From the NCBI GenBank assembly GCA_041656175.1, contig JBBAEA010000003.1, positions 1 through 63,237 of the forward strand: a stretch of 63,237 nt of DNA. The letters are read 5' to 3'. Shown here piece after piece: positions 57,447 through 60,376 of this stretch. The stretch is from Bradymonadales bacterium (lineage in GTDB: Bacteria > Myxococcota_A > Bradymonadia > UBA4248). A program made the position numbers and the translations under genes. Within the stretch, counting starts at the first letter, position 1. Every line of letters starts with the position of its first letter. The notes under the pieces are model-generated. The model was given only the letters and a program-made list of their open reading frames with translations. It was not told where the DNA came from and searched no databases.

Positions 57447-58265
57447 ATGCCTTGGACTTCGGAACACACTAAATGGCTCATCGACACTGGCGAACGACTG
57501 AAAACTGCCGACGGCAAGAAAGTCGAGGTCTGGGAGCTCCGTCATGAAAACGACGCGGTAGTGCTTTCGGCTTGGGCTAGGCATTTCCGGAATCACTACT
57601 GCTTTGACAGGGATATTGATGATTTGCGCAGAGGGTACGATTGCTCTCGTGGAGAGTATCTCAACACCATAAAGTTTCTAGACCCCAAATATGCGCCAGG
57701 CCCCAGCATCCGCGCTGGCGACTTTGGAGAAGTGCTGGTTGCAGATTTTCTTGAATACCTGCTTGGTTACTGGGTTCCACGCACTCGCTATGGTGGCAAA
57801 ACCAGCCGGAACGAGTCGACAAAAGGCAGTGACATCATCGGCTTCCATATCGTCAAGGATGGCAAAGTTTCTTCGAAGGATAGGCTAGCGATCTTTGAAG
57901 TGAAGGCGCAATTCTCAGGGAAAAAGGCGAAGACGAGACTCCAAGATGCTGTAGATGGCTCGGCAAAAGACATCGAACGGAAGGCGGAGTCTTTGAATGC
58001 GATCAAGCAAAGGCTGCGTGACCGGGATGAGTTCGATAAAGCTAAAATAATTGAACGGTTCCAGAACGAAGTGGCTCGCCCATACAAGGAAGTTTATGGA
58101 GCTGTCGCGCTCTTTGAAAACCCGCTTTTTGACTGCCACCTGACACTCTCTACCAATGCATCCACTTATCCGCATTCTGCTGATCTTGCGTTAGTGGTCA
58201 TTAAAGGGCATCATACGATGGCACTCGTCAACGAGCTCTACAGGAGGGCTGCGGATGAGGCCTGA
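57447..58265 (+). CDS. HamA/DUF1837-like PD-(D/E)xK nuclease-fold protein
   Basis: GGGAGGGGA SD. GDFGE (res 91-95), GSDIIGF (D129) and FEVKAQ (E151-x-K153). Confidence 0.5.
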   Translation: MPWTSEHTKWLIDTGERLKTADGKKVEVWELRHENDAVVLSAWARHFRNHYCFDRDIDDLRRGYDCSRGEYLNTIKFLDPKYAPGPSIRAGDFGEVLVADFLEYLLGYWVPRTRYGGKTSRNESTKGSDIIGFHIVKDGKVSSKDRLAIFEVKAQFSGKKAKTRLQDAVDGSAKDIERKAESLNAIKQRLRDRDEFDKAKIIERFQNEVARPYKEVYGAVALFENPLFDCHLTLSTNASTYPHSADLALVVIKGHHTMALVNELYRRAADEA

Positions 58266-58503
58266 ACAGAAATCCCAACTTCTGCTGGGAGCCACACGGT
58301 CAAAGGCTAAGATGCTTGAGAAAAAGCTGGAATTAGTATTGGATGGCGAAGCGCCCTATGACATCTTCGTGCGCTGGAAAGCGATTGAAAAACAACCCAT
58401 CGGTTGGAATCCAGACTTGAACGATGGCGACCGAATCAACGACCACCACCTGAGTTTGGCCGAGAAACGCGCCGCAAGGGAGATGGTGGAGAGCTCGCCA
58501 TGA
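58255..58503 (+). CDS. Small ORF (82 aa) coupled to both neighbours
   Basis: AGGAGGG lies 6 nt before the ATG at 58255. The stop overlaps the next start (ATGA at 58500-58503). No family recognised. Confidence 0.45.
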   Translation: MRPEQKSQLLLGATRSKAKMLEKKLELVLDGEAPYDIFVRWKAIEKQPIGWNPDLNDGDRINDHHLSLAEKRAAREMVESSP

Positions 58504-59780
58504 TCAAGCATCTCAAACTATCCAATGTTGGCCCAGCAGCTAAGATGGAATTGGAATTTGCTAGGCGCTTGAACCTGTTGACTGGAGATAACGGCTTGGG
58601 CAAGAGCTTTCTGCTGGATATTGCTTGGTGGGCACTGACTCGCAGGTGGCCCGCTGAAATTAACCCGAAGCTGACTGCTGGGAAAAAGGCGTTACCTGCC
58701 TCTGACGGAGAAGCCAAAATAAGCTTTTCTTTTACCAGCAAGAGTAAAGAGGAAAGCTACGAAAGCAGCTTTCTCCGAAAAGAGCAGGCGTGGACTGGCA
58801 GAGCAGGTCGGCCTGCAAACCCAGGGCTCGTCCTGTATGCCATGTCGGATGGCAGTTTTGCTGTTTGGGATCCGCACCGAAATTATTGGCTTACTCGGGA
58901 CGGCCTTGATGTGCAGGAGCGTGTTCCAGCCTATGTTTTTAACCCGAAAGAAGTTTGGGATGGTCTCCAAGATGAAAACGGTGGTTGGCTATGTAATGGT
59001 TTGATACGCGACTGGGCTGGGTGGCAGAAGGAGCGAGGCATACCATTCAAACATCTTAAACAAGTATTGGAAATACTGTCACCTTCGGCCAACGAAAAGC
59101 TGGAACCTGGAAATTTAACGAGAATAAGTCTGGATGATGTCCGCGACATTCCAACGATTCGTATGCCCTATCAACAGGATGTTGCTGTTGTACATGCGTC
59201 ATCTGGAATGCGACGAATCATGGCTTTGGCATACTTTCTTGTTTGGGCATGGGAAGAACACAAGCAAGCGGCCAAGCAACTCGGGGAGCCTGCCACAAAG
59301 CAAATTACCTTTCTGATTGACGAAATCGAATCTCATCTCCATCCGAGCTGGCAGCGTCGTATCGTTCCAACGCTGCTTTCTGTCACGGAAAAACTGACCA
59401 AGAGCGCGAAAGTTCAGTTGATCACAGCTACGCACTCCCCGTTGATCATGGCGTCTGTGGAGCCGTTATTTGACGCGCAACAGGACTCATGGTTTGACCT
59501 CGATTTCGAAGATAAAAAAGTGCTTCTGCGCCGCCGCAACTTTGAAAAACATGGCGATGTTGCGAACTGGCTTGTCAGTGAGGCGTTTGATTTGAAGAGT
59601 GGTCGCCCTATTGAGTATGAGCATCTTGTAGAGGAAGCCTCGACATTGCTGGACAAAGAGCAGCCGACCGAAAAACAGATTTCCGAAATGTATGATAAAT
59701 TGCTTCAAGCATTAGGGCCTAAGGACGAGTTTTTGTTTCGATGGCGGACTATTTGCGACAAAAAAGGGTGGCTCAAATGA
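58500..59780 (+). CDS. ptuA: PtuA-like ABC/AAA_21-type ATPase (Septu-type)
   Basis: Walker A GDNGLGKS (res 29-36), Walker B FLIDEIESHLHP, and ATHSPL. Confidence 0.6.
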   Translation: MIKHLKLSNVGPAAKMELEFARRLNLLTGDNGLGKSFLLDIAWWALTRRWPAEINPKLTAGKKALPASDGEAKISFSFTSKSKEESYESSFLRKEQAWTGRAGRPANPGLVLYAMSDGSFAVWDPHRNYWLTRDGLDVQERVPAYVFNPKEVWDGLQDENGGWLCNGLIRDWAGWQKERGIPFKHLKQVLEILSPSANEKLEPGNLTRISLDDVRDIPTIRMPYQQDVAVVHASSGMRRIMALAYFLVWAWEEHKQAAKQLGEPATKQITFLIDEIESHLHPSWQRRIVPTLLSVTEKLTKSAKVQLITATHSPLIMASVEPLFDAQQDSWFDLDFEDKKVLLRRRNFEKHGDVANWLVSEAFDLKSGRPIEYEHLVEEASTLLDKEQPTEKQISEMYDKLLQALGPKDEFLFRWRTICDKKGWLK

Positions 59781-60376
59781 TCCCCGTGACTCTTCAGCCT
59801 GAACCTGCTGACTTTGATGCTGAAGTACGGCAACGAGGGCATGCATGGCTTAGGAACCAAGCGATAGCTCTTAATGCTGCGCCTCCAAAAGCTTCCAAGC
59901 TACCAAACTATTGGTCGCATTCGAATAAACAGCTATGGGAGGCGTATTCTGGTATATGTGCCTACCTCGCGATTTTTTTCGAATGGAGTACTGGTGCTGC
60001 GTCAACGGATCATTTTATTGCAAAGTCGCAGAATGCTGGTGATGCTTATGAGTGGTCAAACTACCGACTTTCGTGTCTTGCGCCGAATCGCAATAAGAAC
60101 AAGTTTGATGATGTGCTCGATCCCATAGGCTTAAGCCCAAATACCTTTGTCATCAATTTTGCATCAGGCAAGATCGCTCCCAATCCAGCATTAAATTCTG
60201 CCCAGAAAACAGCGGCTCGCAAAACCATCCGCAGATTGAGATTGGACAGCCCAGACAACAACGAGATGCGTGCTCGGCATTTTCAGGATTACCTCAGAGG
60301 TAACTGTTCATTGAATCATCTCCAGCGCTATTCGCCGTTTGTTCACGCAGAGATACGAAGGCAGGGGCTCGCATGA
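59777..60376 (+). CDS. ptuB: PtuB-like HNH-fold protein (TIGR02646-like) with a depleted Cys4 zinc site
   Basis: ATGA overlap with the ATPase gene. The core reads CAYLA...TDHFIAKS...YEWSNYRLSCLAPNRNKNK, where the family pattern as I recall it is CxYCE...DHFxPKS...WxNL..aCxxCNxxK. Confidence 0.5.
   Translation: MIPVTLQPEPADFDAEVRQRGHAWLRNQAIALNAAPPKASKLPNYWSHSNKQLWEAYSGICAYLAIFFEWSTGAASTDHFIAKSQNAGDAYEWSNYRLSCLAPNRNKNKFDDVLDPIGLSPNTFVINFASGKIAPNPALNSAQKTAARKTIRRLRLDSPDNNEMRARHFQDYLRGNCSLNHLQRYSPFVHAEIRRQGLA

What the first reader, a model, noticed from the sequence alone, without database searches (positions are those of the whole stretch)
57447..60376. Four coupled genes (HamA-like nuclease, 82-aa ORF, PtuA-like ATPase, Cys-depleted PtuB-like HNH) form a Septu-derived cassette I cannot place in a described system
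Seen in the sequence:
- Four same-strand ORFs have no intergenic space. They overlap at 58255-58265, and there are ATGA start/stop overlaps at 58500-58503 and 59777-59780.
- The first two have strong SD sequences: GGGAGGGGA before 57447 and AGGAGGG 6 nt before 58255.
- ORF1 (272 aa) carries GDFGE, D129 in GSDIIGF, and E151-V-K153. This is the layout of the PD-(D/E)xK core of the DUF1837/HamA effector of Hachiman. No HamB-type helicase follows it.
- ORF3 has Walker A GDNGLGKS, Walker B LIDEIE and ATHSP, the ATPase class of Septu PtuA.
- ORF4 has the DHF...WSN...NxNK core of TIGR02646/PtuB.

Established knowledge: Septu is described as a PtuA-PtuB pair, sometimes with a retron RT. Hachiman is described as HamA-HamB.

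Inference: this is a nuclease-plus-adaptor extension of a Septu pair, or a HamA effector that swapped its helicase for an ABC-ATPase/HNH module. Either would be a new gene combination.
Basis: partly seen in the sequence, partly recalled or inferred. Interest (0 to 1): 0.85.

Follow-up and report, generated by a model that had tools for sequence, protein, structure and literature searches.

The report
Septu pair beside broken Hachiman remnant
The four tightly packed genes are not a new defence system: they are an ordinary, complete Septu pair (PtuA-PtuB) joined by a deletion scar to the leftover nuclease gene of a broken Hachiman system, inside a decayed defence island.

Summary

The interpretation as a new four-gene cassette fails. 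The 82-aa "adaptor" is a three-piece scar:
- Codons 1-22 are the start of hamB.
- Codons 23-58 and 59-82 are two pieces of the 3' end of a BREX type 1 pglX, with about 49 codons deleted between them.

Each "coupling" feature is inherited from a parent operon. The 11-nt hamA/hamB overlap occurs in Hachiman relatives, and the ATGA pglX/ptuA overlap occurs in BREX-1 loci that carry ptuAB between pglX and pglZ.

HamA is absent from all 80 loci of PtuA relatives. PtuA and PtuB are absent from all 80 loci of HamA relatives. The chimeric ORF has no full-length match among 5.8 billion proteins except itself.

PtuA and PtuB match catalogued Septu models end to end and evolve normally. The orphan HamA shows accelerated, relaxed-looking evolution.

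The whole block 52627-60376 is a mosaic: a 5'-truncated BREX-3 tail plus hamA plus the scar plus Septu. Only Septu is complete. Interest is low.

The parts
52627..54682 (+). 5'-truncated brxHII (BREX type 3 SNF2 helicase). The mechanical ORF starts at 52589, but homology starts at 52627.
   Evidence: The PADLOC BrxH model PDLC00500 matches only from profile position 274 of 933. Relatives encode about 960-aa proteins, and DNA homology begins at window 52627, near codon 282 of the relatives.
54679..56673 (+). pglZ of BREX type 3, intact ORF
   Evidence: NCBIfam BREX_PglZ_3 gives E 7.7e-270, and PADLOC PDLC02558 matches full length.
56670..57428 (+). brxA of BREX type 3
   Evidence: PADLOC BrxA PDLC02444 matches full length, E 2.1e-112. 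The order brxH-pglZ-brxA-hamA-hamB recurs in 25 of 80 HamA loci.
57447..58265 (+). hamA, the Hachiman DUF1837 PD-(D/E)xK nuclease: an intact ORF that has lost its partner
   Evidence: PF08878 gives E 1.8e-12, and PDLC00161 matches full length at E 5.6e-110. About 2000 homologues exist, up to 86% identical. The window copy departs at 7 of 111 conserved columns, and the relative-rate test gives 16 lineage-specific changes against 2-3.
58255..58320 (+). hamB' remnant: codons 1-22 of the Hachiman helicase gene, forming the first part of the 82-aa ORF
   Evidence: 21 of 22 residues are identical to the HamB N-terminus in L083-L085, with the same 11-nt overlap with hamA. PADLOC HamB models match at profile positions 1-25.
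58321..58428 (+). 'pglX fragment: about 36 codons from the C-terminal region of a BREX type 1 methyltransferase gene, forming the middle of the 82-aa ORF
   Evidence: PADLOC PglX PDLC02528 matches at positions 1005-1051 of 1125, E 5e-23. tblastn with L022 PglX aligns its residues 1029-1075 to window 58300-58440. Protein strings are shown.
58429..58503 (+). pglX extreme 3' end (DRINDHHLSLAEKRAAREMVESSP*), joined to the previous piece by an in-frame deletion of about 49 codons. Its stop overlaps the ptuA start (ATGA).
   Evidence: Intact PglX proteins in L008, L060 and L072 end with the same tail and the same ATGA overlap with ptuA.
58500..59780 (+). ptuA, the Septu ABC-type ATPase
   Evidence: PDLC00307 matches full length at E 5.7e-186, and AAA_21 gives 3.1e-26. 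Eighty relatives are 59-87% identical. The window copy departs at 1 of 144 conserved columns, and its relative rate is symmetric.
59777..60376 (+). ptuB, the Septu HNH nuclease
   Evidence: PDLC00348 matches full length at E 8.4e-70, and TIGR02646 gives 3.5e-12. It follows ptuA in the relatives wherever the contig continues. It departs at 0 of 49 conserved columns. Homology to other loci ends exactly at its stop codon, 60376.

Best explanation
The block 52627-60376 is a mosaic of pieces from two composite defence islands, joined by illegitimate deletion or recombination.

Left piece. This is the tail of a BREX type 3 plus Hachiman island: 'brxHII-pglZ-brxA-hamA-hamB'. It is cut about 280 codons into brxHII on the left and after codon 22 of hamB on the right.

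Right piece. This comes from a BREX type 1 island that carried Septu between pglX and pglZ. It runs from about 95 codons before the pglX stop, with a further in-frame deletion of about 49 codons, through ptuA and ptuB.

The 82-aa ORF is the in-frame fusion scar hamB(1-22)-pglX(two C-terminal pieces). It has no function of its own, beyond perhaps passing ribosomes on to ptuA.

The only complete system is a canonical stand-alone Septu. By homology (inferred, not shown here), the PtuA ABC-ATPase oligomer scaffolds the PtuB HNH nuclease. That nuclease nicks or cleaves DNA when infection relieves its ATP-dependent inhibition.

HamA is a relic. Without the HamB sensor helicase it cannot perform Hachiman defence, and it appears to be drifting.
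For: The 82-aa ORF is a scar.
- Residues 1-22 (MRPEQKSQLLLGATRSKAKMLE) match the HamB N-terminus, which reads MRPEQKSQLLLGVTRSKAKMLE|YGIPEE in L083-85.
- Residues 23-58 and 59-82 match PglX. In L060 the PglX sequence is ...KKKLELILEGEAPYDIFVRWKPIEKQPIGWNPDINDG, then 49 residues, then DRINDHHLSLSEK...*.
- The internal deletion lies between imperfect direct repeats of the form GGYG..CG..T.AA.

The parent operons exist elsewhere.
- In 54 of 80 HamA loci a complete HamB ORF of at least 1000 codons follows hamA, with an overlap like the window's. Most of the others run off the contig end.
- 25 of those 80 loci show brxH-pglZ-brxA-hamA-hamB, at 79-92% identity to the window proteins.
- 24 of 80 PtuA loci have a PglX match of more than 300 aligned residues upstream and PglZ/BrxL downstream. 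L022 was confirmed as BREX type 1 by PADLOC.
- The pglX stop overlaps the ptuA start by ATGA in L008, L060 and L072.

The four-gene adjacency does not recur.
- HamA occurs in 0 of 80 PtuA loci, and PtuA/PtuB in 0 of 80 HamA loci.
- The only full-length match to the 82-aa ORF is itself.

Septu is canonical and under constraint.
- PtuA and PtuB match PADLOC Septu models over their full length.
- The window copies depart at 1 of 144 and 0 of 49 conserved columns.
- Their relative rates are symmetric.

HamA looks relaxed.
- It departs at 7 of 111 conserved columns, including P78L and D210A, which are invariant in 78 of 78 relatives. Fisher p = 0.004 against PtuA plus PtuB.
- It has 16 lineage-specific substitutions against 2-3 in its nearest relatives, p about 0.001.

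The rest of the island is degraded too. The window holds no other HamB, PglX, BrxC, PglZ-1 or BrxL remnant.

The junction is not an assembly artefact. An independent metagenome contig (L086) carries it at 99.95% identity.
Against: - HamA is still a full-length open frame with its catalytic D92, E95, D129, E151 and K153 intact.
- Both scar junctions are in frame, which has about a 1 in 9 chance if unselected. Translational coupling from hamA to ptuB is therefore preserved, which could be read as selection for co-expression.
- No expression or phage data exist.
- The excess of substitutions in HamA could reflect adaptation rather than decay.
- The ancestral genome that held both parental islands was not found.
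Confidence: 0.9

Rival explanations
1. The four genes are a new functional system. HamA serves as a second nuclease effector and the 82-aa protein as an adaptor for a PtuA-PtuB core.
For: - The genes are tightly coupled, HamA is an intact ORF with its catalytic residues, and both junctions of the 82-aa ORF are in frame.
- Faster HamA evolution could in principle be adaptation to a new partner.
Against: - The 82-aa ORF is made of recognisable pieces of hamB and pglX.
- Every coupling feature pre-exists in a parent operon.
- There is no co-occurrence in 160 related loci, and no homologue of the chimera among 5.8 billion proteins.
- HamA has lost residues that are invariant in 78 of 78 relatives.
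- In the second contig of the same organism, identity to the window begins only at hamA codon 44, while ptuAB is identical.
Confidence: 0.03
2. The orphan HamA keeps a function of its own. It could be a stand-alone nuclease or toxin, or it could work in trans with a HamB-like helicase encoded elsewhere in the genome.
For: - The 272-codon ORF is intact, has a strong SD, and retains the catalytic motif.
- Only 63 kb of the genome could be inspected, so a HamB acting in trans cannot be excluded.
Against: - In the relatives hamA is followed almost invariably by an overlapping hamB.
- One study reports that HamA alone has no nuclease activity (PMC11914072). Another reports that HamB is the sensor that controls HamA (PMC12278908).
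- HamA departs at conserved positions and evolves faster than its relatives.
- The L086 variant lacks the first 43 codons.
Confidence: 0.06
3. The hamB'/'pglX junction is an assembly chimera rather than a real genomic junction.
For: The sequence appears to come from an uncultured organism, so it may be a metagenome assembly. The far ends of L086 show that contigs of this organism break at repeats.
Against: - An independently assembled contig from JGI sample 3300060803 has the same junctions. It has no differences across hamA'-ptuB and only 3 mismatches in 5660 nt overall.
- Both junctions are in frame and lie inside otherwise continuous coding sequence.
Confidence: 0.01

Closest known systems
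Septu type I (stand-alone PtuA-PtuB; solved example PDB 8EE4/8EE7)
   Same: - It is a two-gene ABC-ATPase plus HNH pair with ATGA coupling.
- Both proteins match PADLOC PtuA1 and PtuB1 models over their full length.
- Walker A, Walker B and the DH...N...N HNH core are present.
- The same pair is conserved in 80 loci.
   Different: - It is only distantly related in sequence to the solved Septu (PtuA E 1.5e-5 against 8ee4).
- This PtuB clade has CAYL instead of the CAYC seen in the solved TIGR02646-family chain 9n69_F.
- It sits behind a pglX tail rather than behind an evident promoter of its own.
Hachiman type I (HamA-HamB)
   Same: HamA is a full-length member, up to 86% identical to HamA proteins of intact systems, with the same 11-nt overlap into the hamB start.
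   Different: HamB is reduced to 22 codons, so the sensor helicase that defines the system is missing.
BREX type 1 loci carrying Septu and other cargo between pglX and pglZ
   Same: The pglX tail plus ptuA plus ptuB, with the ATGA pglX/ptuA overlap, is the arrangement seen in L008, L060 and L072. Close variants occur in about 24-29 of 80 relatives. HNH plus OLD-type ABC-ATPase dyads inside BREX loci are described in PMC12839542.
   Different: The window keeps only about 60 codons of pglX. It has no brxA, brxB, brxC, pglZ or brxL of type 1.
BREX type 3 with appended Hachiman (brxHII-pglZ-brxA-hamA-hamB)
   Same: The gene order is the same, and 25 metagenome loci are 79-92% identical.
   Different: The window copy lacks brxF, brxC, pglXI and the first ~280 codons of brxHII on the left, and lacks hamB on the right.
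Retron type I-A (Ec78/Eco7) RT-ncRNA-PtuAB
   Same: It has a homologous ATPase-HNH effector pair. The best PDB sequence matches of PtuA are retron PtuA chains.
   Different: - No reverse transcriptase lies in the block.
- The NCBIfam retron equivalogs score far below their cut-offs (PtuA 76 against 500 bits, PtuB 42 against 150).

Membership tests
Septu (PtuA-PtuB) | PtuA: ABC/OLD-type ATPase with Walker A and Walker B | tested here: met
   PADLOC PDLC00307 covers residues 1-424 of 426, E 5.7e-186. Pfam AAA_21 gives 3.1e-26 and AAA_15 gives 2.6e-15. GDNGLGKS and LIDEIE are present.
Septu (PtuA-PtuB) | PtuB: HNH nuclease of the TIGR02646 type, encoded immediately downstream of PtuA | tested here: met
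   PADLOC PDLC00348 covers residues 1-198, E 8.4e-70. TIGR02646 scores 46.6 bits, slightly under the 52.15 cut-off. D78-H79, N95 and N104 are conserved, with no departures at 49 conserved columns. The genes share an ATGA overlap, and the pair is conserved in the relatives.
Septu (PtuA-PtuB) | Stand-alone: no associated reverse transcriptase or ncRNA, which distinguishes it from retron type I-A | tested here: met
   Every ORF between 52.6 and 61.4 kb that matched a family matched BREX, Hachiman or Septu, and none is an RT. The retron equivalogs NF041760 and NF041761 score far below their cut-offs. No ncRNA search was run.
Septu (PtuA-PtuB) | Confers phage resistance; ATP-inhibited DNA nicking by the PtuAB oligomer | not testable with these tools
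   This is known only for studied homologues (PMC12819146).
Hachiman (HamA-HamB) | HamA: DUF1837 PD-(D/E)xK nuclease | tested here: met
   PF08878 scores 48 bits against a cut-off of 25. PDLC00161 matches full length, E 5.6e-110. D92, E95, D129, E151 and K153 are retained.
Hachiman (HamA-HamB) | HamB: SF2 (Ski2-like) helicase of about 1000 aa encoded immediately downstream | tested here: not met
   Only codons 1-22 remain, at 58255-58320. The window has no other HamB match.
BREX type 3 | Full gene set: brxF, brxC, pglXI, brxHII, pglZ, brxA | tested here: not met
   pglZ and brxA are present. brxHII matches its profile only from position 274 of 933. The window's PADLOC-scanned ORFs include no BrxC, PglXI or BrxF.
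BREX type 1 | Full gene set: brxA, brxB, brxC, pglX, pglZ, brxL | tested here: not met
   Only about 60 codons of the pglX 3' end are present. tblastn with a verified type 1 gene set finds nothing else.
   The adjacency appears in 0 of 80 and 0 of 80 related loci. The 82-aa ORF has no full-length homologue other than itself.

The most novel reading that the evidence does not exclude
After the deletion that removed hamB, the still-intact hamA stayed translationally coupled, through the in-frame scar ORF, to ptuAB. It is being co-opted as an extra nuclease effector or regulator of Septu. On this reading the excess of substitutions in HamA is adaptation to a new partner rather than decay, and the locus would be an observed first step in the birth of a composite defence system.
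Probability: 0.03. Interest if true: 0.6.

Novelty: already known. Interest (0 to 1): 0.12.

Why it matters
For the scan, this is a cautionary example. Zero intergenic space and start/stop overlaps were taken as evidence of a functional unit, but every one of those features was inherited from a different parent operon and brought together by deletion.

Biologically it is a well-resolved case of defence-island decay. Two composite islands (BREX-3 plus Hachiman, and BREX-1 with embedded Septu) have been reduced to one working two-gene system plus relics, with both breakpoints mapped to within a few nucleotides.

It also illustrates two recurrent arrangements that are already described in general terms (PMC12839542):
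- Septu and other cargo sit in the pglX-pglZ gap of BREX-1.
- Hachiman is appended after brxA of BREX-3.

None of this changes what is known about Septu or Hachiman.

Tried and rejected
- **Circular permutation or tandem duplication.** A BrxH-like hit just after ptuB in L019 suggested that ptuAB once sat inside the same BREX-3 locus. I rejected this. The L019 protein is a different SNF2/DrmD-like helicase, and the pglX fragment belongs to the BREX type 1 model, with relatives in type 1 loci.
- **The 143-nt direct repeats as island boundaries.** The repeats at 51703-51845 and 60760-60902 bracket the block and could have been att sites. I rejected this because further copies lie at about 2830, 30018 and 43120. 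It is a dispersed genomic repeat.
- **Promoter and terminator scan of 56500-61400.** The scan found fewer promoter-like sites than shuffled sequence and nothing informative.
- **Conserved-column test on the BREX-3 relics.** The window ranked first for departures in BrxA, PglZ and BrxH. Only 13-17 closely related sequences were available and no valid outgroups, so I do not use this as evidence.
- **PDB sequence searches.** These gave only distant matches (HamA 8vx9 at 3.4e-4, PtuA 8ee4 at 1.5e-5, PtuB 9n69_F at 0.009). They are consistent with the assignments but add little. A Tako8 hit to HamA is a repeat artefact.
- **Structure prediction and fold search.** I did not run these. The sequence evidence was decisive, and the tool cannot model complexes.
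Full report
**1.

The four same-strand ORFs are at 57447-58265 (272 aa), 58255-58503 (82 aa), 58500-59780 (426 aa) and 59777-60376 (199 aa). The 11-nt overlap, the two ATGA overlaps, the two Shine-Dalgarno sequences and all the quoted motifs are present as described.

- ORF1 is HamA: Pfam PF08878 at E 1.8e-12, and PADLOC PDLC00161 end to end at E 5.6e-110.
- ORF3 is PtuA: PADLOC PDLC00307 covering residues 1-424 of 426 at E 5.7e-186, plus Pfam AAA_21 and AAA_15.
- ORF4 is PtuB: PADLOC PDLC00348 covering residues 1-198 at E 8.4e-70. TIGR02646 scores 46.6 bits, just under its cut-off.

**2. The 82-aa ORF is a scar, not a gene.**

PADLOC gave the first hint. Residues 1-23 hit the first 25 positions of three HamB models, and residues 16-62 hit positions 1005-1051 of the 1125-position PglX model PDLC02528 at E 5e-23. 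Direct comparison with relatives settles the matter.

- Residues 1-22 (MRPEQKSQLLLGATRSKAKMLE) are 21/22 identical to the N-terminus of a 1051-aa HamB in L083/L085, which reads MRPEQKSQLLLGVTRSKAKMLE|YGIPEEHH. PADLOC confirms the L083 protein as HamB.
- Residues 23-58 (KKLELVLDGEAPYDIFVRWKAIEKQPIGWNPDLNDG) and 59-82 (DRINDHHLSLAEKRAAREMVESSP*) are two pieces of the PglX C-terminus. In intact PglX proteins such as those of L060, L008 and L072, about 49 residues (VRLNIRPF...WYHMFKG) separate them.

At the DNA level, junction 1 lies at about 58320/58321. The hamB sequence ...AAG ATG CTT GAG is joined there to the pglX sequence AAA AAG CTG GAA.

Junction 2 lies at about 58428. It sits between imperfect direct repeats (GGC GTG CGA TTG AAT and GGT GAC CGG ATA AAT in L008), as expected for a slippage-type deletion.

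The window holds no other trace of HamB or of any BREX type 1 gene.

**3. Each coupling feature is inherited from a parent operon.**

Hachiman side. I collected 80 metagenome loci encoding HamA relatives that are 56-87% identical, plus five found by exact look-up.
- In 54 of the 80 a complete hamB ORF of at least 1000 codons follows hamA, with an overlap like the window's. Most of the others run off the contig end, and a few are interrupted.
- In 25 of the 80 the upstream genes are brxH-pglZ-brxA, 79-92% identical to the window's. The window's left half is therefore a fragment of a recurrent BREX-3 plus Hachiman composite.

Septu side. I collected 80 species-representative genome loci encoding PtuA relatives that are 59-87% identical.
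- ptuB follows ptuA wherever the contig continues.
- In 31 loci the pglX-derived part of the 82-aa ORF finds a match upstream on the same strand, usually inside an ORF of 1120-1300 codons.
- In 24 loci a PglX match of more than 300 aligned residues lies upstream and PglZ/BrxL lies downstream.
- L022 was verified by PADLOC as BREX type 1: brxA-brxB-brxC-pglX-[ptuA-ptuB]-pglZ-brxL.
- In L008, L060 and L072 the pglX stop overlaps the ptuA start by ATGA, exactly as at window 58500-58503.
- Short pglX tails abutting ptuA, like the window's, also occur in L002, L003, L067 and L070.

**4. The four-gene adjacency does not recur.**

HamA, BrxA and the BREX-3 PglZ are absent from all 80 PtuA loci. PtuA and PtuB are absent from all 80 HamA loci.

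A search with the 82-aa ORF against 5.8 billion proteins found one full-length hit, itself, on two contigs. All other hits are PglX C-terminal fragments covering at most 89% of the query.

The second contig, L086, comes from an independent JGI metagenome. It matches the window at 99.95% over 57578-63237, with no differences in hamA'-ptuB. The junction is therefore real and not an assembly artefact.

The first 122 nt of L086 are unrelated to the window, so in that contig hamA is cut at codon 44 while ptuAB is untouched. This fits hamA being dispensable, with the caveat that it is a contig end.

**5. Extent of the mosaic.**

DNA homology between the window and the 166 fetched loci spans exactly 52627-60376.
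- The left end falls about 280 codons into brxHII. Relatives encode about 960 aa, and the PADLOC match starts at profile position 274 of 933.
- The right end is the ptuB stop codon.
- No brxC, pglXI or brxF was found among the window's PADLOC-scanned ORFs.

The block has 49-58% G+C, against about 35-46% in the preceding 43-51 kb. To its left lie a broken IS3-family element (50575-51685) and a type ISP/IIG-like enzyme (47208-50567). Downstream lies prfC.

The host appears to be an uncultured bacterium. Its PrfC is 81% identical to a "Proteobacteria bacterium" MAG protein, 70% to a deltaproteobacterial MAG protein and about 65% to Polyangia proteins.

**6. Signs of selection.**

I examined columns that are at least 95% conserved among relatives.
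- The window PtuA departs at 1 of 144 and PtuB at 0 of 49.
- HamA departs at 7 of 111, including P78L and D210A, which are invariant in 78 of 78 relatives. Fisher p = 0.004.

A Tajima-type relative-rate test used the nearest relative and more distant outgroups.
- HamA shows about 16 window-specific substitutions against 2-3 in the relative (p about 0.001).
- PtuA (about 14-20 against 13-23) and PtuB (about 6-12 against 10-13) are symmetric.

The HamA catalytic residues are still present. I read this as relaxed constraint on an orphan gene, but adaptation cannot be excluded on these data alone.

**7. How it most likely works.**

The working unit is Septu. This rests on published work on homologues, not on anything shown here. 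Stand-alone PtuAB forms an oligomer in which the PtuA ABC ATPase scaffolds the PtuB HNH nuclease. The complex nicks DNA, ATP inhibits it, and in one studied case a phage tail-fibre protein sensitises it (PMC12819146).

The window proteins keep the Walker A and B motifs and the HNH core, and they match the Septu profiles end to end.

Expression is probably driven from upstream. Translation can pass from hamA through the scar ORF into ptuA and ptuB by the preserved overlaps, and ptuA also has a GGAG about 9 nt upstream of its start codon. The promoter was not identified.

HamA cannot carry out Hachiman defence without HamB, which is the DNA-damage-sensing helicase that controls it (PMC12278908). 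A second study found HamA alone inactive as a nuclease (PMC11914072). That would explain why an orphan copy is tolerated.

**8. Comparison with what is known, and verdict.**

- Septu membership is met on every feature that could be tested.
- Hachiman membership fails, because HamB is missing.
- BREX-3 and BREX-1 membership fail, because their gene sets are incomplete.
- Auxiliary nuclease modules embedded in BREX loci, including HNH plus OLD-type ABC-ATPase dyads and PD-(D/E)xK nucleases fused to SF2 helicases, have been described (PMC12839542, section 35).

The finding is therefore a known system sitting next to relics, not a new combination under selection.

The most novel reading the data do not exclude is incipient co-option of HamA by Septu. 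I put it at about 3%.

Noticed in passing
window 51703-51845 and 60760-60902; further copies near 2830-2948, 30015-30088 and 43116-43226 (minus strand): A dispersed repeat of about 120-140 nt with G/C-rich palindromes (GGGGGGCTTTGCCCCCC...). Its copies are 74-93% identical. Two of them happen to bracket the defence block. It looks like a REP/MITE-like genomic repeat rather than an att site.
   Followed up: partly
L086:1-122 against window 57578: A second metagenome contig of the same organism is 99.95% identical from 57578 onward, but its first 122 nt are unrelated and A+T-rich. In that contig hamA is cut at codon 44. The cause could be an IS insertion, a deletion or a chimeric contig end; this is unresolved.
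   Followed up: partly
L001-L080 (for example L020 6266-9888, L070 7971-9668, L044 8178-10007, L001 7154-9988, L011 6154-7344, L016 9003-9959): In BREX type 1 relatives, the gap between pglX and pglZ holds stacked cargo alongside ptuAB. The cargo includes Gabija (GajA/GajB), DUF262-type Orf5/HEC-06, Ppl, HEC-01 ATPases and a TIR protein. The gap behaves as a variable cargo slot.
   Followed up: partly
L088, L090, L095, L097, L124, L125, L154-L159, L162-L166 and others (25 of L087-L166): brxHII-pglZ-brxA-hamA-hamB recurs with the same order and similar spacing, so Hachiman is regularly appended to the 3' end of this BREX type 3 lineage. Whether the two cooperate functionally was not examined.
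   Followed up: no
L002, L003, L067, L070 (just upstream of ptuA) and L025:2125-2403: Independent short pglX 3' remnants (34-173 codons) abut ptuA in other genomes. L070 has both an intact pglX and a separate tail remnant. L025 has a decayed remnant with a deletion at nearly the same LND/INDHH repeat as the window. ptuAB seems to travel with the pglX tail, which may carry its expression signals.
   Followed up: partly
window 50575-51685 (minus strand): An IS3-family transposase is broken into three ORFs (HTH_Tnp_1; HTH_21; only the rve C-terminal end). This decayed IS lies about 900 nt upstream of the truncated brxHII, beyond orf193.
   Followed up: partly
window 47208-50567 (minus strand): An intact 1119-aa type IIG/ISP-like restriction-methyltransferase (PADLOC REase_MTase_IIG E 0; Pfam Type_ISP_C plus N6_Mtase). 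It is probably the second working defence gene in this neighbourhood.
   Followed up: partly
window 51953-52534 (minus strand): A 193-aa ORF lies between the repeat/IS region and the truncated brxHII. It has no Pfam or PADLOC match, and its function is unknown.
   Followed up: partly
window 43385-44131 / 44149-44895 and 45666-46322 / 46329-46928 (minus strand): There are two tandem pairs of paralogous genes. One pair encodes 248-aa putative lipoproteins with no family match. The other encodes OMP beta-barrel proteins and corresponds to direct repeat D1, 83% identical.
   Followed up: no
window 60800-63000: GC skew is unusually strong and positive (0.28-0.40) across the small ORF at 61038-61256 and prfC, compared with about 0-0.15 in the rest of the region. 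This is unexplained.
   Followed up: no
L081/L082 (hamB 8809-9987), L105/L106/L108, L143: Other examples of Hachiman decay exist. hamB is interrupted by an IS (rve) after 392 codons in L081/L082 and is cut to 646 codons in L105/L106/L108. In L143 a C-terminally truncated hamA has no hamB within 5 kb.
   Followed up: no
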